This document shows positions 14,666 through 36,061 of a stretch of DNA of 42,858 nucleotides, in pieces. Every line of letters starts with the position of its first letter. The first letter of the stretch is position 1. A program made the translations under genes and the position numbers. Under the pieces are notes generated by a model. It saw nothing but the letters and a program-made list of their open reading frames with translations. It was not told the origin of the DNA and made no database searches. The stretch lies in sequence record NC_072811.1. The stretch is one strand, 5' to 3'. The DNA comes from Escherichia phage Halfdan.

Positions 14666-15196
14666 TTACACCCGAACCGTTTTCAACATGCCGCCGTTAG
14701 TGGCGCATTTGCCGAACAGCGGGGCTAACATCGAATCAACGGCCGAAAGCGTCGGGCGCATTCCAACCGCCAGCGGGTCGGCGTACTTGGTCGTAATCGG
14801 GCCGACAGTTTCTTCGGTTACGAAGTCGCTTGCCGTATAGTTCGGCATAAGTTCTATGCCGTTGAACTGCGCGATTACGGCTTGACACTGCGCCGCTTTG
14901 ATTTGTGCCGGTACTTCGTCGGCCGCTGCAATCAACTTACCGGAACACCCGCCGCCGTAATACGCATCGGTACGCGGCCACGAAAGGGCTTGCCCGTCGT
15001 TGGTGCGATAGCCGACGTATTCACATTCGAACGTCAACAGGTAGTCGGTTGCGTTAATCAGTTGCGCCGCGATTGCTTCGTCGTCGCCCAACGTTACACC
15101 ACGATTCGCGGCATACTGGCGGGCGTCGGCAACCGAAACGTAACTGTTGGCGTTTGCCTTACCGGTTCCGTCTTCGACAACAATTTCGATTGCCAT
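14666..15196 (-). CDS. head-tail adaptor-like protein
   Basis: 176 aa; N-terminus MAIEIVVEDGTG...ANSY resembles phage adaptor (DnaT-like domain) proteins by recollection only. Confidence 0.4.
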   Translation of the reverse strand: MAIEIVVEDGTGKANANSYVSVADARQYAANRGVTLGDDEAIAAQLINATDYLLTFECEYVGYRTNDGQALSWPRTDAYYGGGCSGKLIAAADEVPAQIKAAQCQAVIAQFNGIELMPNYTASDFVTEETVGPITTKYADPLAVGMRPTLSAVDSMLAPLFGKCATNGGMLKTVRV

Positions 15197-15207
15197 AGTC
15201 GAACCCC

Positions 15208-15669
15208 TTACGCCGACAGCGCGACGGCGGAAATCTTGCCGTCGGTAACGGTTAGCGTTACTTTGGTGCCCGTACCAGTTGCCGCGATGCCGGTAAGTTC
15301 ACCGGATACGGCTAGGGCATGGGTCGCCGGAAGGTTCGTCCATTGGGCCACGCCGTCGGCAACGTGAATCGCCGAAGCGACAAAGGCGTCGCCCGCGCTG
15401 TTCGAAACGTTCAACGCTTGGCCGTCGGTGACGATAGCGCCGTTCGCCGGAATATGCGGGTTGTCGGTCGTCGGAACGTCGGCGTATGCGTCGGGAATGT
15501 TCGCATTGTCGAAAACGTAGTCGCACGGTTCCAGACGGTCGGCCCCGTATTCAGCGTTTGCCGCGCCGTTGCGAACCAGAATATCGACGTTACCGGCGAC
15601 GATAGCCGCAATCGCGTTTCGTTCGTCGGTAGTCGGCACCGCACCGGCCGTAAAGAAAAGAACTTTCAT
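15208..15669 (-). CDS. hypothetical virion protein
   Basis: 153-aa ORF; AAGGAA SD 9 nt upstream of ATG. Confidence 0.35.
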   Translation of the reverse strand: MKVLFFTAGAVPTTDERNAIAAIVAGNVDILVRNGAANAEYGADRLEPCDYVFDNANIPDAYADVPTTDNPHIPANGAIVTDGQALNVSNSAGDAFVASAIHVADGVAQWTNLPATHALAVSGELTGIAATGTGTKVTLTVTDGKISAVALSA

Positions 15670-15730
15670 CGCATAGATTCCTTGTCAATTGCCCGATGCC
15701 CACAATAAGCCGTCGGCATCGGGCACGGCC

Positions 15731-16228
15731 TTAGTTCTGTTTCCAGCCATTAGCGGCCGGGGTGCCCTTAGCCGGGGTTGCAGGTGCGCCCGCTGCGGCG
15801 GCTGCGGCGGCCTTGGCGGGGTCTTCTTCGGTCGGGGTAGGGGTAGGCCCGCCCTTGCCGTCGTTCGCGTCACCTTGGCCCGCTGCGGCCCCTTGCTGGC
15901 CGTCCTTTTTGTCGCCGTCGCCGGTCTTGTTACCGGTTTCGGTCGATTCGCCCGGTTTCGGGGCTTTGCCGCCGACTTCCAGCAGTTTCGCACGCGCTTT
16001 CTTCACTTCGGCTTTGTACGCCTTCAAAGCGTCTTCGGCCGTCGGATGGTCTTTGTACGCTTCGGGTACGTGACCGGTAACGCCGTCGCATTCTTCTTCG
16101 ATGCGGCTAACGTGTTGCGCGTTGCGGAACTGAACCGGGACGCCCAAATCGAAAGCGTCCAGCTTTTCGGCTTCCGACGGAACAGGCCCGTCGATAAAGA
16201 AAATGATTTTCGGTTGTTTGAGATTCAT
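15731..16228 (-). CDS. hypothetical head-associated protein with Ala/Gly/Pro-rich C-terminus
   Basis: 165-aa ORF directly downstream of the capsid gene. Confidence 0.35.
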   Translation of the reverse strand: MNLKQPKIIFFIDGPVPSEAEKLDAFDLGVPVQFRNAQHVSRIEEECDGVTGHVPEAYKDHPTAEDALKAYKAEVKKARAKLLEVGGKAPKPGESTETGNKTGDGDKKDGQQGAAAGQGDANDGKGGPTPTPTEEDPAKAAAAAAAGAPATPAKGTPAANGWKQN

Positions 16229-16291
16229 TGCCGTAATTCCCGTCGGTTAGTTGCGAAAACGGGGGCCGAAGCCCCCGCCCCGTCGCGGCCC

Positions 16292-17260
16292 TTACTTGGT
16301 CTTGTACAGAACGCCCGCAAGGTCTTTGTGCGAAGTGGAATACTTATCCCAATTCGACGCCGTGAACAGCGCCGCATCGGTCGGCGATTTGCCGCCGTTC
16401 GGCTTGTCCCACGCGAAGCCCTGAATACCGACGTTGTACGACCATTCGGCTTGGTAAGTCCGTTTGATGTTTTCGTCACCGGTTGCCACGGTTTCGGCGG
16501 CGTCGAAGTCGTTGTTTTGACCGACGTAGATACCGCCCTGTACCAGACCCAGCGACATAAAGCCGGAAGCCGGGGACGGGGTAGTTACCGACCATTGCAG
16601 CGACGGCGAGTCGGTCACGACGAACAGACGGCCGAACGGGTCACGGATAACGTTAACCGTGTCGTACTTGAACAGGTTTTCGGCGTTGGTCAACGCATTG
16701 ACGTACAGTTTAGTAACCGGCGTCGAATGCATAATCCATGCACGAATGGCGTTTTGACGGTCGCCGAACAGGCCAGCGGCTTCGGTCAGGCCGACGAAAG
16801 ACGGGTCGGAAGTCGAATCGTCTTTGACGACGGCGGATTGCGCCGACAGGGCCGAAACACCGCAACCGATAGCGGTGTTCAGCATATCGGCCAGCAGGTC
16901 GCCCGCCAGTTGTTGACCGAGTGCCGCGCCAGCGACTTCGGGGTTCTGTTGAATCCAACGGAACTGGCCGGGGTCAAGGCGGATTTCGGAAGTACCGGCC
17001 GCGACCTTAACGGACGTATCGACCAGATGTTTCAGGGTCTTTTGTGCGATTGCGCCGGAACCGTAAGCGTTACGGCGGCGAACCAGACCGGAAATCTTCG
17101 CGAAGAAGGCTTCGTCGGAAAAGTCGCCTTGATGCGCGGCCGGAACCAGAACGATAACGCCGTCGGAAGCGCCGTTGAACAGTTCGATTTGCTGCGCCAG
17201 AACTTCGGTCATCGAAGAATAGGCGTATTCGGAATATACCGCGAGGTCGGAAAGTGCCAT
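16292..17260 (-). CDS. major capsid protein
   Basis: 322 aa; AAGGA SD; immediately follows scaffolding gene. Confidence 0.7.
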   Translation of the reverse strand: MALSDLAVYSEYAYSSMTEVLAQQIELFNGASDGVIVLVPAAHQGDFSDEAFFAKISGLVRRRNAYGSGAIAQKTLKHLVDTSVKVAAGTSEIRLDPGQFRWIQQNPEVAGAALGQQLAGDLLADMLNTAIGCGVSALSAQSAVVKDDSTSDPSFVGLTEAAGLFGDRQNAIRAWIMHSTPVTKLYVNALTNAENLFKYDTVNVIRDPFGRLFVVTDSPSLQWSVTTPSPASGFMSLGLVQGGIYVGQNNDFDAAETVATGDENIKRTYQAEWSYNVGIQGFAWDKPNGGKSPTDAALFTASNWDKYSTSHKDLAGVLYKTK

Positions 17261-17275
17261 GATATAGCGTCCTTA

Positions 17276-17977
17276 TTACTGGTTGTTTGCTTCCGCCTTC
17301 TGCGCCTGAATCCGGGCCGCAAGGTCGCGGGGACTCAGTTTCGACAGGTCGGCGGGTTTGTCGGAATCGTTGTTGAACTTACCGGCACCGCCGTTGACAG
17401 AAGCGCCAGTCTTAGGGGCACCGCCCCCGGACGCTTTGTTACCCCGGATAATAGCAGAAAAATCTTTGTTGGCAACAAATTCGGCGGTAAGTTGTTCGAT
17501 AGTCGTTTCGGACGGTTTGCCGTCGGCCCCAAGAACTTTGGTAGCCGGGGCGTCGCCGCTAAGGTCAGCGGTAAGCCGGGCCTTAATGTGGGGAACCAGC
17601 AACGCCGGGGCGGTACTGATTTCGGTTGCGATTTTGGTTGCGACGGAATCAACCAAAGTCGATTGGATAAACGCGTTCGCCTTCGTCAACTGGCCGTCTT
17701 TCTCGCCAAGTTGCTTTTTCAGTTCTTTATCGAACTTGGCGGCGTTGCCTTGAACTTCGCTGGTAAGCGTTGCGATTTGTTCTTCGGCGTCGCGCAACTT
17801 GCTTTCTACTTCCTTGCGCTGTTTGACTTCGTGGTCTTTAGCGCGGCGAAGTGCGCCGGTATCTTCCAGCCCGTCAACGTCAAGATGGTATTCACCATCT
17901 TTTTCGAAGTATTCGGCTTTGACGGCATCCGACAGCTTGTCGAAAACTTCTTTAGTGATTTTGAGTTTCAGCGCCAT
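17276..17977 (-). CDS. scaffolding protein
   Basis: 233 aa, charged helical composition; between head morphogenesis and capsid genes. Confidence 0.6.
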   Translation of the reverse strand: MALKLKITKEVFDKLSDAVKAEYFEKDGEYHLDVDGLEDTGALRRAKDHEVKQRKEVESKLRDAEEQIATLTSEVQGNAAKFDKELKKQLGEKDGQLTKANAFIQSTLVDSVATKIATEISTAPALLVPHIKARLTADLSGDAPATKVLGADGKPSETTIEQLTAEFVANKDFSAIIRGNKASGGGAPKTGASVNGGAGKFNNDSDKPADLSKLSPRDLAARIQAQKAEANNQ

Positions 17978-20656: not shown

Positions 20657-22276
20657 TTATGATGGTCGAACAAGTTTAATTGCGGTTGCGGCCCGGTTGT
20701 TGCCAGCAAGGACGCGGTAACGTACTTCGTCGTAAACGTGGTCTTCGGAATCCGTATCCACGTCGTCGAGTATTTTAGAGTCGCGGGGCAATGTGGGCAA
20801 TATCGAAATAGCGGCCCGGCAACAGTCCATAATATACAACCCTTTGTGTTCACCGGTCGAAGTTGCTTCTAACCGTTCGCGCACAAGTTCAAGGCCGATT
20901 TTACGACTACCCGGCGATTTATCCGATTCAGTCCAGCGGATACCGACCGACGACATTTTCTTTTCGATGGTTTCCGTTTCATCGTCCGTAACGTTTCGAA
21001 TCTGGTTATCCGCTGGCCCCGGCCACGGTTGCGACTGAATCCAGCCGTTAGTCATTAATGCGATTTCAATATCGCGGATACCTTCCGCCACTTTACGCGA
21101 CGACATTTTAAGACCCTTGTTCGTTCCGATTTCCTTTGTACCGTACCATTCGAATATGCGAACAAGCGAACCAGCGGGCGGGCAAAACTTCTTCGTCGTT
21201 CCGTCGGGAAATACGATAGTCGCTTCTTCGCCGTTAGCTTCGGCCCACCAGCCAACCGAAAACGGATGCGACGAACCCCAGTCGAAAGACCGGTCGATTC
21301 GCCAACTTTTCGGAACAACGAACCGGGGAACGATAACGGTTTGTTTATTCCAAACGTCGTCGAGTGCGCCGCCTGCGACGATATCCCAATCGCCAAGCAA
21401 CCACGCTTTACGGCGGTTTTCGTCTTTTTCGCTATTCAGTTCGGCAACGTATTCGGGAGAAAGATAAATGTTTTCGACATACGAACCGAAGATAGCGACT
21501 TGCGTTTTCGTAACGGTAATTTCTTTCTTGGTCTTCGGGTCGAATACTTCGACGCTGTTTTCGACCATAGTTCCGTAAGGTGCCGGGTCGATAAACCGAC
21601 GCTTAACCCAATTATGGCCCGCGCCGTATGGGTTGCAAGTGCTGAACACTTCCAACGGAATCGGCGGGATTTCGTAAACCGGGCCTTCTTCAACGAAGAT
21701 AATTTCGCCTGTCGCTTCGTAATGGTCGCCGTCAATACACGGTGAATCTTTTTCAGGCGTAAACGAACTACGGTTCGTTGACATCATCATATTGTAAAGT
21801 TCGCCGGTTGGATATTTCGTTAATTCGTTCCAACCGATAAACGGGAATTCTTGGCCGTGATAGTTCCAATAATCGTCGGGATTCTTTGCGACGCGAAACA
21901 ACAGTTCTTCGCCGGTCGGCCAAACCCATTTAAGCGACGAAGCCGATTCAAGAAACTTTGCGCCGTCTTTGAATGCGTAAAACCAACGTTTCGACTTGTT
22001 GATTAAGTCGTCAAGGTTCTTATATTCGCGGTCGAATATGACGCCACGCCAGAACACGCCATAGCCCAAACCGACGCGACGACGAAATCGCATTAGCTGG
22101 GTATCGGTCTTTCCGGGGCCGCGTGCGCCAGTGTATAGGGTATGATGTGCCCGCGTATCTAACGCCAGTTCTTGCGACGTATCCGGTATCGGTTGCCAAA
22201 TTACGTTGGCGTTTTCCGGCGTCCAAATGATGCGTTCGGGCGAATCCGGGTTAGTGTTTGGTAGTATTAGCGACAT
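20657..22276 (-). CDS. terL: terminase large subunit
   Basis: 539 aa; Walker-A-like GARGPGKT near N-terminus; C-terminal nuclease-sized domain. Confidence 0.85.
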   Translation of the reverse strand: MSLILPNTNPDSPERIIWTPENANVIWQPIPDTSQELALDTRAHHTLYTGARGPGKTDTQLMRFRRRVGLGYGVFWRGVIFDREYKNLDDLINKSKRWFYAFKDGAKFLESASSLKWVWPTGEELLFRVAKNPDDYWNYHGQEFPFIGWNELTKYPTGELYNMMMSTNRSSFTPEKDSPCIDGDHYEATGEIIFVEEGPVYEIPPIPLEVFSTCNPYGAGHNWVKRRFIDPAPYGTMVENSVEVFDPKTKKEITVTKTQVAIFGSYVENIYLSPEYVAELNSEKDENRRKAWLLGDWDIVAGGALDDVWNKQTVIVPRFVVPKSWRIDRSFDWGSSHPFSVGWWAEANGEEATIVFPDGTTKKFCPPAGSLVRIFEWYGTKEIGTNKGLKMSSRKVAEGIRDIEIALMTNGWIQSQPWPGPADNQIRNVTDDETETIEKKMSSVGIRWTESDKSPGSRKIGLELVRERLEATSTGEHKGLYIMDCCRAAISILPTLPRDSKILDDVDTDSEDHVYDEVRYRVLAGNNRAATAIKLVRPS

Positions 22277-22721
22277 ATCGACCGTTCACCAATTCGCGCT
22301 GTTGCTTTGCGACCTTCTGCGCCCATTCGTCGTTAGTGCCGTGGTCTTTAACGACCATGACACGCGGGGCCGCGTCAACGTTGATATTCGTTGTCGTATT
22401 CGCTTTGGGGTCGTAGATACCGGCAACCGCGCCGTACTTTTCAGCGGCGGCGATTCGGTCTTTAGGGTCGATTTTTTCGTTATTCGCCAAATCCCAATAG
22501 AAGCGGGCAAGGTCGAATTTCGACGCAATGGCTTGAACGTTCTTCGCGTCCGACCGAAGCCGGTTCATTTCTGCGATAACGTCTTCGTCGTTCGCCCAAT
22601 TGGTCGCATACCATAGGGCTTGGCCCGTGTTGTCCGGGCATAGCAGGCAAGCGGCCTTGAACGGGTCGCGTTCCTGTAAAAGAAAAGCCGCATAAGCGGC
22701 CTTCGATTTCGTGTCTTCCAT
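22251..22721 (-). CDS. putative terminase small subunit
   Basis: 156 aa from ATG 22719-22721 (TAAGG SD); 3' end overlaps terL start; call by position. Confidence 0.4.
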   Translation of the reverse strand: MEDTKSKAAYAAFLLQERDPFKAACLLCPDNTGQALWYATNWANDEDVIAEMNRLRSDAKNVQAIASKFDLARFYWDLANNEKIDPKDRIAAAEKYGAVAGIYDPKANTTTNINVDAAPRVMVVKDHGTNDEWAQKVAKQQRELVNGRYVANTTKH

Positions 22722-22782
22722 ATCGGGCGGCCTTACTGTTAATCGAACTTGGTTCAATCATAATACAGCCGCCCGATATAGT

Positions 22783-30040: not shown

Positions 30041-30241
30041 TTAGGCCGCGTTAAGTTTGGCGACAGCGGCGTCGATAGCGGCTTGCGTGTCGTCGGTCTT
30101 GATGATGCGGCACTTTTCGTCGGAATACGAATCGTCGCGTTCCTGTTCGACGCATTCGCGGTCGTAGTCGCCAAACTGAACCGACCAAACGCCGTCGGTC
30201 TTGGTCAACAAGCTGAAATACTGTTTCGCTTTCTTCGCCAT
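30041..30241 (-). CDS. hypothetical protein
   Basis: 66 aa from ATG 30239-30241 with GAAGGAG SD; track ORF extends to an ATG at 30322 that lacks an SD. Confidence 0.4.
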   Translation of the reverse strand: MAKKAKQYFSLLTKTDGVWSVQFGDYDRECVEQERDDSYSDEKCRIIKTDDTQAAIDAAVAKLNAA

Positions 30242-30362
30242 TTCGATAACTCCTTCGCTGTATCCGGTGACTGTTGCGACAGTATCGCCGCATTCCGTCG
30301 GACTGTCAACCGGATTTTTCATCGGATAGCAAACCGGTTCGTCGTTTGCCCCTTGGCCCCAG

Positions 30363-30603
30363 CCTTATACGAATTTAAGGGTTCCGATTAGCCCTAAGTC
30401 CTTGTATTTATTGAAGATATAAAAAGTATAAAGAGTATAAGGATAGTACCTATTTTAGTGAATGTACGGAATCCGATAACCAATCCGACGGTTTGGGGGA
30501 TAGAAGGGGAAGTGAAGGTTTATCGCCTTATAACCCTTATACCCTTATAACATCAATGAAATCAGGGGGTTAGGGCTTATACGCGGCCTTAGCCCCCTTA
30601 TAC
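30363..30603. repeat. iteron cluster with AT-rich core (candidate replication origin)
   Basis: at least 7 copies of CC(C)TTATA(A/C) in both orientations, three in tandem at 30526-30550; AT-rich stretch 30400-30470; noncoding gap between primase stop (30624) and next gene. Confidence 0.5.
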
Positions 30604-30623
30604 TGATTCGTCGGATAGGTTAG

Positions 30624-32930
30624 CTAGAAGCCGAACGCCCGTGGTGCCGAAATCATGTACGCAACGCCACGGAATCCGAACTTATCAATCAATTGACCTT
30701 TACCCAATTCCGCAATGTCGCCACGGTCGCAAAGCGTCTTCAAGGTGCGTCGGATAACGTCGGATGCCGTGATTCGTTCGCCTTTGAAAGCGGATAGGTT
30801 AGCCAATTTACGTTGAAGGTACGGATACGGAATAATGCGTTCGCCGTGCATCATTGCCGACCCGCCATACGACGCCACTTCCGACCAAGGCCGAACGACG
30901 TATTCGCGAATAACGCGTACCATTTCGTTAAGCTGTTTGGTTTCGTTGCTGTTCTGGCCGACTTCGCCGCTATTGAACCGACCTAACAGGTTGTTCGAAT
31001 CCGCTTCAACGATACGCAAGGCCCAAGCGGCGGCGCTGGCATCAATGGTCGGGTTATAGGGGTCACAACCGACGGCAACCAGCCCGGCTAGTTTCATGGC
31101 CTTAATGTGGGCACGGTTCCAAAGGTGGCGCGTGACTTCGCGGGATGCGTTGTTAATTCGCTTGTCGCATTCTTCGTTGAAAGCGTCGAACAGTTCTTTC
31201 GCTTCCGGCGATACGCGGATATGCACCGCTTTATGCGAGTTGTTCAGCATCAACGCTTGCGCGCACAATTGCGCCATACGTTCGACCAGTTCATTCGACG
31301 GCATTACGAACGCGTGGCCTTCGTTCATAGACGGCCGCTTTCCTCGGTATTCGATGATGGTAAAGCGCGGCAACAAACCTTCGCTAATCATCATTTCATC
31401 AAGGAATTCGTAAAAGCGTTCGGGCGTTGATTCGCCTAGCATCGTGTAAGACGGTGCCAGAACCGAAGCCGTATTCTTTTCTTTATCCGAATAGATGGTC
31501 GGACGCAAAACCGAACCTTCGCCGGACTTGTTGAACAGGTCAAGCAACAGGCGGCGCAAGCCGACAAGGTGCGTCGGTGCGCGGGGGTCGGTCATTTGCT
31601 GCAATGCGATACCGATTTCGCCGACGATGCTTACAAAGCTGGTCGGGCCTTTCGACATATATTTAACCAACGCTTGCGCCGATGCGATTTCAGCCGGGCC
31701 GATGAATTCGTTAGCCGCTGGCACGGTGCGTTGCACTTGGCCCATTAGCTTTTCAATGCCCTTTGCGATTGCTTCTTTACCGGTGCCGGTTGGGGCCAAC
31801 AACATAACGTATTGGTTCAATCCGGTATTCGACACGTTGTACGCACGCCCACATATACCAGCCATCAAGCCAATAGCGGCCGTAAGCGCGATTTCCGGTA
31901 CAGGCCGGGGCGCTTGCTGGTAAATGAATTGCGCGATTTCGCCCATAAGGCCGGGCGGCACGGTGTACGGCGTATCGCCTTGGGGTTCGGGGATATATTC
32001 GGCTGTCGGCACGCTGGCGGCTTCCTGTTGCACGGCGACGCGGCTTTGTTGCAATGCTTCGTTAAGCCGGTTCATAAGTGCGGCGGTATCGACTGGCGGC
32101 AACATGCGGTCGAAAGACTTGTTAATCATGTAGTCGATATAACCGACGCCACGAATCGACGTTTGTTTGTCGCGTGCGCCCAACGGCGACGCTTTGAACA
32201 TCCGGGTAAGCTGTTCGCGGTTTTGGGTATAAAACGCCAAAATGTTGATATACGCTAAGTCGGCTTCGGATTGCGACGGATACAGGCCGACCCAATCGCC
32301 GTTATGCAACGACATAAACTTCGCGCCGTTTTCCGCATTGCGTGCGATTTCGATAACTTCGTCGTCCGACTTGGTTTGCGGTTCGTTGCCGTCGTAATAT
32401 GTCTTTTCTTCTTTACCGCCCAACAGGGTATAAAGTTCGTTGACCATATCGTTACGGTCTTCGATAGCAGGGTTCGAACCGTTAAGGAAATTGCCCGTCA
32501 TGGTCATAAAGCGACCGGACGAATACAGTTCGATACGGTTACGCTTGCGACCGGCTGGCAACGCACCTTTTACGATGATATGCACGCCCTTACCGCTTGG
32601 CGAAAGTTCGGTATACGACCCTAGCCGTTGGTAAATCGTGATTTGGTCGGCGTACAATTTCGGGTCGCCGTCCGTATCGTCAAGGTCGATAAAGCAATAC
32701 GGGTCGTTTTGCGTTAACACGAAGCCCAAGCCGTTAAACCATCCGTCTTGGCACGCTTGCGCGGCTTGCTCAAACGTTCCGAATGTTGACGGTTCGTTGA
32801 CATTCGCCCGCGTTTGGAAATTATGCGGCGAATACGGTACTTTGGTCGGCTTATCGGCTTGCGTGTCTTCGTAACGCCAAACTACCCAATGCGGCGTATT
32901 CCGCAATTCTTCGGGTATGTTCTGGTACAT
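30624..32930 (-). CDS. DNA primase (prim-pol-type N-terminal domain) with C-terminal NTPase-like region
   Basis: 768 aa; PHWVVWRYE, FIDLDD, SPSGKGVHI, ELYSSGRFMTMTG motifs; P-loop-like APTGTGKE. Confidence 0.7.
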   Translation of the reverse strand: MYQNIPEELRNTPHWVVWRYEDTQADKPTKVPYSPHNFQTRANVNEPSTFGTFEQAAQACQDGWFNGLGFVLTQNDPYCFIDLDDTDGDPKLYADQITIYQRLGSYTELSPSGKGVHIIVKGALPAGRKRNRIELYSSGRFMTMTGNFLNGSNPAIEDRNDMVNELYTLLGGKEEKTYYDGNEPQTKSDDEVIEIARNAENGAKFMSLHNGDWVGLYPSQSEADLAYINILAFYTQNREQLTRMFKASPLGARDKQTSIRGVGYIDYMINKSFDRMLPPVDTAALMNRLNEALQQSRVAVQQEAASVPTAEYIPEPQGDTPYTVPPGLMGEIAQFIYQQAPRPVPEIALTAAIGLMAGICGRAYNVSNTGLNQYVMLLAPTGTGKEAIAKGIEKLMGQVQRTVPAANEFIGPAEIASAQALVKYMSKGPTSFVSIVGEIGIALQQMTDPRAPTHLVGLRRLLLDLFNKSGEGSVLRPTIYSDKEKNTASVLAPSYTMLGESTPERFYEFLDEMMISEGLLPRFTIIEYRGKRPSMNEGHAFVMPSNELVERMAQLCAQALMLNNSHKAVHIRVSPEAKELFDAFNEECDKRINNASREVTRHLWNRAHIKAMKLAGLVAVGCDPYNPTIDASAAAWALRIVEADSNNLLGRFNSGEVGQNSNETKQLNEMVRVIREYVVRPWSEVASYGGSAMMHGERIIPYPYLQRKLANLSAFKGERITASDVIRRTLKTLCDRGDIAELGKGQLIDKFGFRGVAYMISAPRAFGF

Positions 32931-33133
32931 TACTTAACCTTTGCTTTCAGATATGCGTAAAGGGTTTCGACGAAGACGACGCCGGGGTTATCCGACTGGC
33001 CTACCGCGAACGCACGAATCCAAGCGACCGACAGGCCGGTTTCGTCAGCAATGGTCTTGTATTCAAGGTTACGGGGGCGATTCAACAGAAGTTGCCGGGT
33101 TTCATCCCGCCAACCGGTGACAAGCTGGGTCAT
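32930..33133 (-). CDS. small helix-turn-helix DNA-binding protein
   Basis: 67 aa from ATG 33131-33133 (TAAGGA 9 nt upstream) or 70 aa from ATG 33140-33142; YKTIADETGLSVAWIRAF HTH-like segment; first gene of the leftward unit. Confidence 0.5.
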   Translation of the reverse strand: MTQLVTGWRDETRQLLLNRPRNLEYKTIADETGLSVAWIRAFAVGQSDNPGVVFVETLYAYLKAKVK

Positions 33134-33173
33134 TGTGGGCATTCCTTACGGTTGCGCGTGGTCATTGGCCGAA

Positions 33174-35251: not shown

Positions 35252-36061
35252 ATGGCTCAATTGATGCAAGCGTTCGACGCACGTAACGTAGACCCGACCC
35301 AAGGCGTCGGCGGTTTGCCAATCGGCAAGCATCCGGTTATCGCTATCAAGTCGGAAGTAAAGCCGACCAAGGATAACGATTCCGGTTATCTGCAATTCGA
35401 CTTGCAGGTTATCGACGGCCCGAACAAAGGTGCGGTCGGCGCTTACCGCCTGAACCTGTACCATACCAACCCGCAAACCGTCGAAATCGCGCACAAACAG
35501 TTGTCGGCTTTGTGCCACGTTACCGGCGTGTTCCAAGTGCAAGATTCGCAACAGTTGCACAACATCCCGTTTATGGTCGAAGTCGGGTTGCAGAAAGAAC
35601 CGAACCCGAACAAGTACACCGACGTAAAACGCGTGTTCGATATCAACGGTAACGAACCCGGCCACGCCAACGGCAACGGTCAAGCCGCGCAGAACAACGG
35701 CGGCCAAGCCGGTAACAACGGCGGTTCGTGGGGCAACCAGCAACAGAACGGCGGCCAGAACCAGCAGCAAAACAACGGCGGCAATAACGCCGGTTGGGGC
35801 GGTCAATCGCAAGTCGCGAACAACGTTCCGATGCCGGATAACAACGGCGGTAACAACCAGAACCAAGGCCAGAACAACGGCGGCGGTAATCCGGGTTGGG
35901 GCCAGAACAACGGCAACAACGGCCAGCAGGGCAACCAGCAGGGCGGCGGCTGGCAAGGCAACCAGCAGGGCAACCAAGGCCAGCAGCAAGGCAACGGCGG
36001 CGGCTGGAACCAGAACCAAGGCAACGGCGGCGGCCAACCGGCTTGGGGCCAACCGCGCTAA
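35252..36061 (+). CDS. putative ssDNA-binding partner of Sak4 with G/N/Q/W-rich C-terminal tail
   Basis: 269 aa from ATG 35252; globular N-terminal ~140 aa then ~130-aa low-complexity tail with periodic GW; functional call by context. Confidence 0.4.
   Translation: MAQLMQAFDARNVDPTQGVGGLPIGKHPVIAIKSEVKPTKDNDSGYLQFDLQVIDGPNKGAVGAYRLNLYHTNPQTVEIAHKQLSALCHVTGVFQVQDSQQLHNIPFMVEVGLQKEPNPNKYTDVKRVFDINGNEPGHANGNGQAAQNNGGQAGNNGGSWGNQQQNGGQNQQQNNGGNNAGWGGQSQVANNVPMPDNNGGNNQNQGQNNGGGNPGWGQNNGNNGQQGNQQGGGWQGNQQGNQGQQQGNGGGWNQNQGNGGGQPAWGQPR

What the first reader, a model, noticed from the sequence alone, without database searches (positions are those of the whole stretch)
30363..30603. Iteron-rich, AT-rich noncoding region beside the primase gene: candidate replication origin
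The roughly 380-bp gap between the primase stop (30624) and the next gene (ATG 30241) holds at least seven CC(C)TTATA(A/C) repeats in both orientations, including a tandem triple at 30526-30550, plus an AT-rich segment at 30400-30470. This is the classic iteron plus DNA-unwinding-element layout of primase- or initiator-dependent origins.
Basis: partly seen in the sequence, partly recalled or inferred. Interest (0 to 1): 0.55.

Follow-up and report, generated by a model that had tools for sequence, protein, structure and literature searches.

The report
Probable phage DNA-packaging start site
The repeat-rich, AT-rich gap after the primase gene of coliphage Halfdan is real and conserved across related phages, but evidence from relatives marks it as the place where DNA packaging starts (a pac site) at the head of the early genes, and a replication-origin role is still untested.

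Summary
The window is Escherichia phage Halfdan (42,858 bp). Six of the eight CCTTATA copies in the window lie within 30363-30602 (0 of 5000 local shuffles reach 6). The window's lowest-GC 60-bp stretch is 30402-30461.

The gap is a conserved element of about 340 bp, homologous in Pavpe01, Septimatrevirus, KL1, Langgrundblatt, RcTitan and Acinetobacter lokivirus D0. It always sits just upstream of the sigma70-type promoter of the early operon. Its distance from the primase gene varies from 0 to 3.6 kb.

Three relatives from three laboratories (Pavpe01, GEC_K2, Langgrundblatt2) were typed "Headful (pac)" by PhageTerm. Their GenBank records start inside this element, 0-10 nt after a conserved C-run and 5' of the AT core. 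The equivalent position in the window is about 30485-30494.

Halfdan TerS has a predicted SF6/SPP1 G1P-like DNA-binding domain. I therefore read the gap as a pac region with repeats flanking the cut, fused to an early promoter.

The origin reading stays open. The primase-helicase resembles SaPI5 PriRep5 and is predicted to end in a winged helix. GC skew is uninformative. Nothing was tested in Halfdan itself.

The parts
30624..32930 (-). Primase-polymerase/helicase gene (768 aa) that borders the element
30526..30603 (+). Left repeat cluster: five direct C(C/G)TTATA(A/C) copies starting at 30526, 30535, 30543, 30575 and 30596. On the gene strand they read (G/T)TATAAGG.
   Evidence: Copies at matching positions in Pavpe01, Kakheti25, PA73, Kopi, Kaya and DoCa1. 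In the pac reading this is the side left outside the first packaged genome, like SPP1 pacL.
30561..30601 (.). Imperfect inverted repeat GGGGGTTAGGGC / GCCTTAGCCCCC built around two repeat copies
   Evidence: I8. As RNA of the primase strand it folds no better than shuffles (z -1.0), so it is a weak terminator at best. It is more stable on the + strand (z -3.3).
30480..30512 (-). C-run motif (gene strand CTTCCCCTTCTATCCCCCAAACC) and the predicted pac cleavage zone, about 30485-30494
   Evidence: Homologous by alignment A1 to the points where PhageTerm-typed pac phages' records begin: Pavpe01 CCCCTAACCCCCTCGAATGC|GTCGG; GEC_K2 and P8749 CCCTGAAACCC|CGGCCC; Langgrundblatt1 and 2 CCCCTAACACCCCCTGTTAACCTG|CTAATT. 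The position in Halfdan is inferred, not measured.
30400..30461 (.). AT-rich core (21.7% GC) holding three 9-bp-period inverted, degenerate repeat copies (30418-30444)
   Evidence: It is also the lowest-GC spot in KL1 and RcTitan, inside their homologous elements. It is the most conserved block of alignment A1.
30365..30440 (-). 76-nt conserved core: AT core, CAAGGACTTAG block (30394-30404) and the right-hand repeat copy
   Evidence: It is the only stretch of the queried 411-bp gap that blastn matches to Septimatrevirus-like phages (77-79% identity). Invariant columns in A1.
30363..30371 (+). Right-hand repeat copy CCTTATACG
   Evidence: The corresponding CGTATAA(G/C)G copy is conserved in eight of the nine aligned phages.
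30281..30309 (-). Sigma70-type promoter TTGACA-17-GATACT of the early operon
   Evidence: 10 of 12 consensus matches. A TTGACA promoter lies at the same place in Pavpe01, Kakheti25, KL1, Langgrundblatt2, RcTitan and D0.
30041..30241 (-). First early gene (66 aa; AGGAG at 30250-30254, ATG at 30241)
   Evidence: Its product is homologous to the C-terminal part of the first early protein of D0.
22251..22757 (-). Small terminase (TerS) gene, the candidate reader of the repeats, about 7.7 kb downstream of the element
32930..33142 (-). Small helix-turn-helix (HTH) protein gene upstream of the primase; candidate binder of the second repeat family, not of CCTTATA
   Evidence: Weak HTH-domain hit. It is non-homologous to the Kakheti25 counterpart (13% identity) although the GTATAA repeats are shared.

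Best explanation
The gap is a composite control element conserved across the Lokivirus, Septimatrevirus, Kilunavirus and Titanvirus group. Its central part is most likely the pac site, where terminase makes the first cut of a headful packaging series.

Proposed mechanism, by analogy with SPP1 and inferred rather than shown:
1. TerS oligomers bind the (G/T)TATAAGG repeats. Five direct copies lie on the primase side, and inverted degenerate copies plus one direct copy lie in and beyond the AT-rich core.
2. The AT-rich core helps the DNA bend or wrap.
3. TerL cuts between the two repeat sets, just after the C-run, at about window 30485-30494.
4. Packaging then runs through the AT core into the early genes, the lysis genes and the structural genes.

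The right end of the element is the sigma70-type promoter of the early operon, so packaging signal and early transcription control overlap, as pac overlaps promoters in SPP1.

Shown: the repeat cluster, its conservation, the homologous record starts of pac-typed relatives, and the TerS fold prediction. Inferred: that Halfdan cuts there, and that TerS reads the repeats.
For: 1. Three independent studies typed relatives as 'Headful (pac)' with PhageTerm: Pavpe01 (PMC11256456 Table 2), GEC_K2 (PMC11302309 supplement) and Langgrundblatt1/2 (PMC9316219 Table 1). PhageTerm outputs the genome reorganised to the terminus it found (PMC5557969).
2. Those GenBank records start inside the homologous element, 0-10 nt after the conserved C-run, all in the same orientation (alignment A1). 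P8749 starts at the same base as GEC_K2.
3. Loki, the type lokivirus, is circularly permuted with no fixed or cohesive ends by BAL-31, ligation and heat tests (PMC5313236).
4. The predicted Halfdan TerS N-terminal domain matches the SF6/SPP1 G1P DNA-binding domain. SPP1 gp1 binds pacL and pacR flanking the pacC cut, and that pac overlaps promoters (PMC6316719).
5. TerS is mosaic. Its DNA-binding part groups Halfdan with Kakheti25 (57% identity against 28% with D0), and Kakheti25 shares the GTATAA flanking repeats. Its core groups Halfdan with D0 (49% against 21%), whose flanks carry TTCGG repeats instead.
6. The element tracks the head of the early operon, not the primase gene.
Against: - No read-level data exist for Halfdan, Shy or the Juelich variant. 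Their records start elsewhere, by convention.
- Whether each relative's record start is the PhageTerm terminus is my inference from the papers' methods.
- Pfeifenkraut was also typed pac, yet its record starts in the SSB gene.
- P8749 may simply have been co-linearised with GEC_K2.
- Loki showed no submolar pac fragment.
- In the well-studied cases I recall (P22, Sf6, SPP1, P1; my own knowledge, except SPP1) pac lies in or next to terS. Here terS is about 7.7 kb away.
- The TerS model is only moderately confident (pLDDT 67.5; N-terminal domain about 77-89).
- The primase winged helix correlates with repeat type as well as TerS does.
- A site-specific nick could also give a one-sided PhageTerm peak.
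Confidence: 0.5

Rival explanations
1. Replication origin of the SaPI Pri-Rep or P4 type. The primase-helicase binds the CCTTATA repeats as iterons through its C-terminal winged helix, melts the AT-rich core, loads itself and primes synthesis. This could hold together with the pac function, as a dual ori-pac element.
For: - Repeats in both orientations around the lowest-GC tract of the genome.
- The flanking gene encodes a primase-polymerase/helicase whose N-terminus matches SaPI5 PriRep5 7OLA and whose C-terminus is a predicted winged helix.
- SaPI origins are 6-12 penta- or hexanucleotide iterons immediately after rep, split by a central AT-rich region and read by the Rep winged helix (PMC9371898).
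- The cumulative G-C minimum falls inside the element in Halfdan, GEC_K2 and Langgrundblatt2 when the genomes are rotated to the break.
- AT-rich, repeat-bearing gaps also lie near homologous primase operons in WildeMaa and JG054.
Against: - There is no functional evidence.
- The skew minimum is within noise (primase G-C = -11 over 2307 nt; genome-wide |skew| at most 0.03 in Halfdan).
- Adjacency to the primase gene is not conserved (0 to 3.6 kb, and on the opposite side in D0).
- The repeats are not arranged as two opposed sets hugging the AT tract. The five direct copies lie 65-140 bp from it, and only one full copy lies beyond it.
- The physical DNA ends mapped in relatives need a packaging explanation in any case.
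Confidence: 0.3
2. Purely transcriptional control region: the end of the primase transcript, the early promoter, and operator sites for a phage regulator. The CCTTATA copies would be operator or -10-like elements with no role in replication or packaging.
For: - A strong sigma70-type promoter, conserved in all relatives, lies at 30281-30309.
- In Kakheti25, GTATAA copies abut the -35 and overlap the spacer of that promoter.
- A second repeat family, RTCGGAY, brackets the -35 in Halfdan.
- A small HTH protein is encoded upstream of the primase.
Against: - In Halfdan the nearest CCTTATA copy is 54 bp upstream of the -35, and most copies lie 220-300 bp away.
- The repeat is absent from the window's other intergenic regions; its only two copies outside the gap lie inside long ORFs.
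- The HTH protein is non-homologous between Halfdan and Kakheti25 while the repeat is shared.
- No conserved -35 accompanies the -10-like hexamers of the AT core.
- This reading does not explain the DNA ends mapped in relatives.
Confidence: 0.12
3. The record starts in relatives are assembly or library artefacts of an AT-rich, structure-prone region, and the repeats have no specific function.
For: - Record starts can be arbitrary. Pfeifenkraut starts in a low-complexity SSB gene although typed pac.
Against: - Starts from three laboratories using two platforms (Illumina iSeq for Pavpe01, DNBSEQ for GEC_K2), each explicitly using PhageTerm, fall within about 10 nt of one homologous position, 45-60 bp outside the AT core.
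- The repeats and the 76-nt core are conserved across phages of Escherichia, Pseudomonas, Xanthomonas, Burkholderia and Rhodobacter hosts.
Confidence: 0.05

Closest known systems
pac site of Bacillus phage SPP1 (pacL-pacC-pacR, read by TerS gp1/G1P)
   Same: - Headful packaging.
- TerS-binding regions on both sides of the cut.
- The packaging signal overlaps promoters (PMC6316719).
- The predicted N-terminal domain of Halfdan TerS matches the SF6 G1P DNA-binding domain.
   Different: - SPP1 pac overlaps the start of the terS gene, whereas here terS is about 7.7 kb downstream.
- The repeat sequence is unrelated.
- TerS binding and cleavage have not been shown for Halfdan.
pac site of phage P1 (hexamer repeats flanking the cleavage region)
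   Same: Short repeats (TGATCA/G in P1, by my own recollection) clustered on both sides of a central cleavage zone. P1 is the pac reference phage validated in the PhageTerm paper.
   Different: Different terminase proteins and motif. P1 repeats are Dam sites and P1 pac lies within a terminase gene (own knowledge, not tested here).
SaPI replication origins read by Rep/PriRep winged-helix helicases
   Same: - Six to twelve 5-6-nt repeats immediately after the initiator gene, with a central AT-rich tract (PMC9371898).
- The Halfdan primase N-terminus is homologous to PriRep5.
- Its C-terminus is a predicted winged helix.
   Different: - The helicase and C-terminal parts show no sequence match to 7OLA.
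- The repeats are not split evenly around the AT tract.
- Adjacency to the gene is not conserved in relatives.
- The element coincides with packaged DNA ends.
Satellite phage P4 ori/crr iterons bound by the alpha primase-helicase C-terminal domain
   Same: A primase-helicase fusion with a C-terminal DNA-binding domain, and octamer iterons with one repeat region next to the alpha gene (own knowledge, used as a lead only).
   Different: No sequence or structural comparison with P4 alpha was obtained here. P4 packages from cos, not pac.

Membership tests
Headful-packaging pac site | A preferred DNA end in virion DNA at the site, seen in one direction only | tested here: inconclusive
   Met indirectly in relatives. 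PhageTerm 'Headful (pac)' was reported for Pavpe01, GEC_K2 and Langgrundblatt1/2, and their records start at the homologous spot in one orientation. No read data for Halfdan itself. Pfeifenkraut does not fit.
Headful-packaging pac site | Circularly permuted, terminally redundant virion DNA | not testable with these tools
   Shown experimentally for Loki and inferred by PhageTerm for GEC_K2, UF_RH1 and UF_RH5. Not known for Halfdan.
Headful-packaging pac site | A small terminase with a DNA-binding domain able to read the site | tested here: met
Headful-packaging pac site | TerS binds the repeats and TerL cuts between them | not testable with these tools
   Needs gel-shift or footprinting and in vivo cleavage assays. 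Only covariation of the TerS N-terminal domain with repeat type is available.
Headful-packaging pac site | Location in or next to the terS gene (usual, not defining) | tested here: not met
   terS is at 22251-22757 and the element at 30363-30603, about 7.7 kb apart.
Iteron-type origin of a primase-helicase initiator (SaPI/P4-like) | Multiple short repeats far above chance | tested here: met
Iteron-type origin of a primase-helicase initiator (SaPI/P4-like) | An AT-rich unwinding tract flanked on each side by at least two opposed iterons | tested here: inconclusive
   The AT tract is present. Five direct copies lie on one side at 65-140 bp, three inverted degenerate copies lie inside the tract, and one direct copy lies beyond it.
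Iteron-type origin of a primase-helicase initiator (SaPI/P4-like) | An initiator helicase with a C-terminal winged-helix DNA-binding domain | tested here: met
Iteron-type origin of a primase-helicase initiator (SaPI/P4-like) | The origin lies immediately after the initiator gene | tested here: not met
   True in Halfdan and Pavpe01 only. The distance is 0.9-3.6 kb in Langgrundblatt2, KL1, Kakheti25 and RcTitan, and the element is upstream of the operon in D0.
Iteron-type origin of a primase-helicase initiator (SaPI/P4-like) | Supports replication, and the initiator binds the repeats | not testable with these tools
   Needs plasmid-maintenance, marker-frequency and binding assays.
Iteron-type origin of a primase-helicase initiator (SaPI/P4-like) | A strand-composition switch at the site | tested here: inconclusive
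   The cumulative G-C minimum falls in the element in 3 of 5 rotated genomes, but the difference from the transcription strand switch is within noise.
Sigma70 promoter/operator region | A -35/-10 pair correctly placed before the downstream gene and conserved | tested here: met
   TTGACA-17-GATACT at 30309-30281, with a conserved TTGACA in relatives. This covers only the right end of the gap, not the repeats.

The most novel reading that the evidence does not exclude
The element serves as both origin and pac site. The SaPI-like primase-helicase would use the CCTTATA repeats and AT core to start replication, and terminase would start headful packaging at the same conserved ~340-bp locus. Replication initiation, packaging initiation and early transcription would then share one control region across at least six phage genera infecting alpha-, beta- and gamma-proteobacteria.
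Probability: 0.15. Interest if true: 0.6.

Novelty: new member of a known kind. Interest (0 to 1): 0.38.

Why it matters
If this is the pac site, it gives the packaging signal for a widespread group of virulent siphoviruses: Lokivirus, Septimatrevirus, Kilunavirus, Titanvirus and the 'Shirevirus' genus proposed in PMC9316219. Several of these are used or proposed for therapy against Pseudomonas, Acinetobacter, Stenotrophomonas and Xanthomonas.

Knowing the pac sequence matters for judging generalised-transduction risk, for genome engineering and for placing genome starts correctly.

The location is unusual. It lies far from terS, at the head of the early operon, beside a self-loading-type primase-helicase. 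That makes this a convenient system for testing whether packaging and replication signals are shared. The papers I could search describe neither a pac sequence nor an origin for this group.

Tried and rejected
- Structured RNA or tRNA in the gap: rejected. No Rfam family and no tRNA. The gene-strand hairpin after the primase folds no better than shuffles.
- Small protein-coding gene in the AT core (29-aa CDS of Halfdan_Juelich): rejected, because the frame is not conserved in Pavpe01.
- GC-skew mapping of an origin: tried on five rotated genomes and by gene blocks and found uninformative. My interim idea that the primase has an intrinsic negative skew failed, because D0 gives +0.016.
- The small HTH protein as binder of the CCTTATA repeats: rejected. 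It is non-homologous between Halfdan and Kakheti25 although the repeat is shared.
- A sigma70 promoter inside the AT core (TTCACT-17-TATACT): no conserved -35 in relatives.
- k-mer density scans for repeat clusters picked out only the low-complexity region of the SSB gene.
- Polymorphisms among Halfdan, Shy and the Juelich variant: eight sites, none in a repeat, the AT core or the promoter hexamers. This is not significant (expected probability about 0.2).
- Cohesive or fixed ends: rejected. No exact terminal repeat in the GEC_K2, PS9N, Pavpe01 or Kakheti25 records, and Loki experiments exclude cos and fixed ends.
- Literature searches for a described ori or pac in Lokivirus or Septimatrevirus found nothing.
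- The PNAS paper on the SaPI replicon was not available.

Full report
**Identity of the window.** The window is Escherichia phage Halfdan (MH362766, 42,858 bp; PMC7552041). It is 99.3% identical over the tested 3 kb to phage Shy and 98.8% to Halfdan_Juelich_variant, both filed under Lokivirus. Minus-strand genes run from about 33142 down to 1: a small HTH protein, a 768-aa primase-helicase (30624-32930), the gap, small early genes, lysis genes, terminase and structural genes. Plus-strand replication genes run from 33294 to about 42768.

**Observation.**
- CCTTATA occurs 8 times in the window, and 6 copies lie in 30363-30602.
- There is also a GCTTATAC variant at 30575 and two degenerate inverted copies in a 9-bp tandem array at 30418-30440.
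- None of 5000 dinucleotide-preserving shuffles of the 382-bp gap reached 6 copies (mean 0.19, maximum 4).
- 30402-30461 is the lowest-GC 60-bp stretch of the window, at 21.7%.
- No tRNA and no Rfam family is present.
- The short CDS annotated here in one relative is not conserved.

**Anatomy, read on the gene (minus) strand from the primase stop.**
1. An imperfect inverted repeat built from two repeat copies (30601-30561). It is a poor terminator, with z -1.0.
2. Five direct (G/T)TATAAGG copies (30603-30526).
3. A C-run, CTTCCCCTTCTATCCCCCAAACC (30512-30490).
4. Two RTCGGAY copies (30489-30471).
5. The AT core with three inverted, degenerate copies (30461-30400).
6. A CAAGGACTTAG block (30404-30394).
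7. One more direct copy (30371-30363).
8. A sigma70-type promoter, TTGACA-17-GATACT (30309-30281).
9. AGGAG and the ATG at 30241.

**Comparative evidence.**
- The same element occurs in Pseudomonas phage Pavpe01, whose primase is 82% identical.
- It also occurs in Kakheti25, PA73, Kopi, Kaya, DoCa1, Yazdi-M and DLP_1, and in KL1 and RcTitan, Langgrundblatt1/2 and Acinetobacter lokivirus D0.
- Alignment A1 shows that the AT core, the CAAGGACTTAG block and the right-hand copy are the best conserved parts.
- A 76-nt core (window 30365-30440) is the only stretch of the queried 411-bp gap that blastn matches to Septimatrevirus-like phages.
- The element always sits directly upstream of a TTGACA promoter heading the early operon.
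- Its distance from the primase gene varies: 0 in Halfdan and Pavpe01, about 0.9 kb in Langgrundblatt2, 1.1-1.2 kb in KL1 and Kakheti25, and 3.6 kb in RcTitan. In D0 the HTH-primase module is inverted, so the element lies on its upstream side.
- 'Beside the primase' is therefore a Halfdan/Pavpe01 accident of gene content, not a property of the element.

**Physical ends.**
- Pavpe01 was typed 'Headful (pac)' with PhageTerm (PMC11256456). Its record begins inside the element...CCCCTAACCCCCTCGAATGC|GTCGGATACG.
[quoted passage not shown] It begins at ...CCCTGAAACCC|CGGCCCAATG, and P8749 begins at the same base.
- Langgrundblatt1 and 2 were typed 'Headful (pac)' (PMC9316219). They begin at ...CCCCTAACACCCCCTGTTAACCTG|CTAATTAGC.
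- All these records run from the break into the AT core and the early genes.
- PhageTerm calls pac from a significant one-strand peak with tau above 0.1, and it outputs the genome reorganised to that terminus (PMC5557969).
- Three laboratories, two stated sequencing platforms and three genera therefore place a preferred end within about 10 nt of one homologous position.
- Loki itself is circularly permuted, with no cohesive or fixed ends (PMC5313236).
- By alignment, the Halfdan equivalent is about 30485-30494.
- Caveats: that each record start equals the PhageTerm terminus is my inference. Pfeifenkraut, also typed pac, starts in its SSB gene. [quoted passage not shown] Halfdan, Shy and the Juelich variant have conventional or arbitrary starts.

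**Which protein reads the repeats?**
- The small HTH protein is unlikely, because it is non-homologous between Halfdan and Kakheti25 (13% identity) although both share the GTATAA repeats.
- TerS is also mosaic. Residues 1-58 are 57% identical to Kakheti25 and 28% to D0. Residues 59-105 are 21% and 49% identical respectively.
- The repeat type follows the N-terminal domain. D0 flanks its AT core with TTCGG-type repeats.
- The primase C-terminus is a predicted winged helix, and its identity also falls off toward D0. Covariation therefore cannot separate the two candidates.

**Origin reading.**
- It is plausible by analogy. The primase N-terminus matches SaPI5 PriRep5 (7OLA, E 9.5e-29).
- SaPI origins are iterons immediately after rep, split by an AT-rich tract and read by the Rep winged helix (PMC9371898).
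- Nothing here tests it. GC skew is weak and follows transcription.
- The cumulative minimum technically falls inside the element in three rotated genomes. The 2.3-kb primase gene between the element and the strand switch has G-C = -11, which is within noise.

**Conclusion.**
- The best-supported reading (confidence 0.5) is a pac region of the SPP1 kind: binding repeats on both sides of the cut, overlapping a promoter (PMC6316719). It is unusually far from terS (7.7 kb) and fused to the early promoter.
- An origin of the SaPI/P4 kind remains a live rival (0.3) and could coexist with pac (about 0.15 for a dual element).
- A purely transcriptional role (0.12) and artefact (0.05) are less likely.
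Its interpretation is only partly supported.

Noticed in passing
window 30297-30303, 30321-30327, 30610-30616 (+); 30471-30477, 30483-30489 (-); 30383: A second repeat family, RTCGGAY, occurs in the same gap: 6 TCGGA/TCCGA copies against 1.2 expected. Three copies bracket the -35 of the early promoter and two lie next to the predicted cut. Relatives carry other lineage-specific motifs at the same two places (TTGATWAAW in PA73, Kopi and KL1; TTAACNGTTAA in Langgrundblatt2). These may be operators of the variable small HTH protein.
   Followed up: partly
window 22251-22757 (TerS gene): TerS is mosaic. Its N-terminal DNA-binding part is closest to Septimatrevirus (57% identity to Kakheti25, 28% to D0). 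Its core is closest to Acinetobacter lokivirus D0 (49% against 21%). This suggests domain swapping that keeps the DNA-binding domain matched to the packaging signal.
   Followed up: partly
window 30624-33142 versus L008 (D0) 15158-17974: The HTH-primase module is inverted in Halfdan, Pavpe01 and Septimatrevirus relative to Acinetobacter lokiviruses. In the latter it is co-oriented with the other replication genes and the element is a divergent promoter region.
   Followed up: partly
window 30041-30322; L005 5448-5537: Two likely annotation errors in relatives. Shy CDS0037 (282 bp) starts at the ATG at 30322, inside the sigma70-type promoter, whereas the start supported by a ribosome-binding site is 30241. 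The 29-aa TTG-start CDS of Halfdan_Juelich lies in the AT core and is not conserved in Pavpe01.
   Followed up: yes
window 30545-30626: The inverted repeat after the primase stop folds much better as plus-strand RNA (-29.2 kcal/mol, z -3.3; a fully paired stem of 13 pairs, two of them G-U) than as the primase-strand RNA (z -1.0). Pavpe01 shows no such strand preference. The meaning is unknown.
   Followed up: partly
window 35906-35995: Tandem 9-, 12- and 21-bp repeats lie in the low-complexity region of the SSB gene. The homologous region is where the Pfeifenkraut record is broken.
   Followed up: no
L021 (WildeMaa) 2269-2842; L022 (JG054) 2580-2978: Queuovirinae phages with a 33%-identical primase also have long AT-rich intergenic regions with their own repeats near the primase operon (TATAGTG about 8 times in WildeMaa; ATTAACAC 3 times in JG054).
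   Followed up: no
OQ055246.1 (vB_XooS_NR08) 64097-64349: A 98.8-kb Xanthomonas phage record contains the Septimatrevirus-type element. At twice the usual genome size it may be a concatenated or chimeric assembly.
   Followed up: no
L020 (Pfeifenkraut) 1-635: Pfeifenkraut was typed 'Headful (pac)', yet its record starts inside the SSB gene and not in the element (37011-37366). Either its record was not reorganised or its PhageTerm peak differs.
   Followed up: partly
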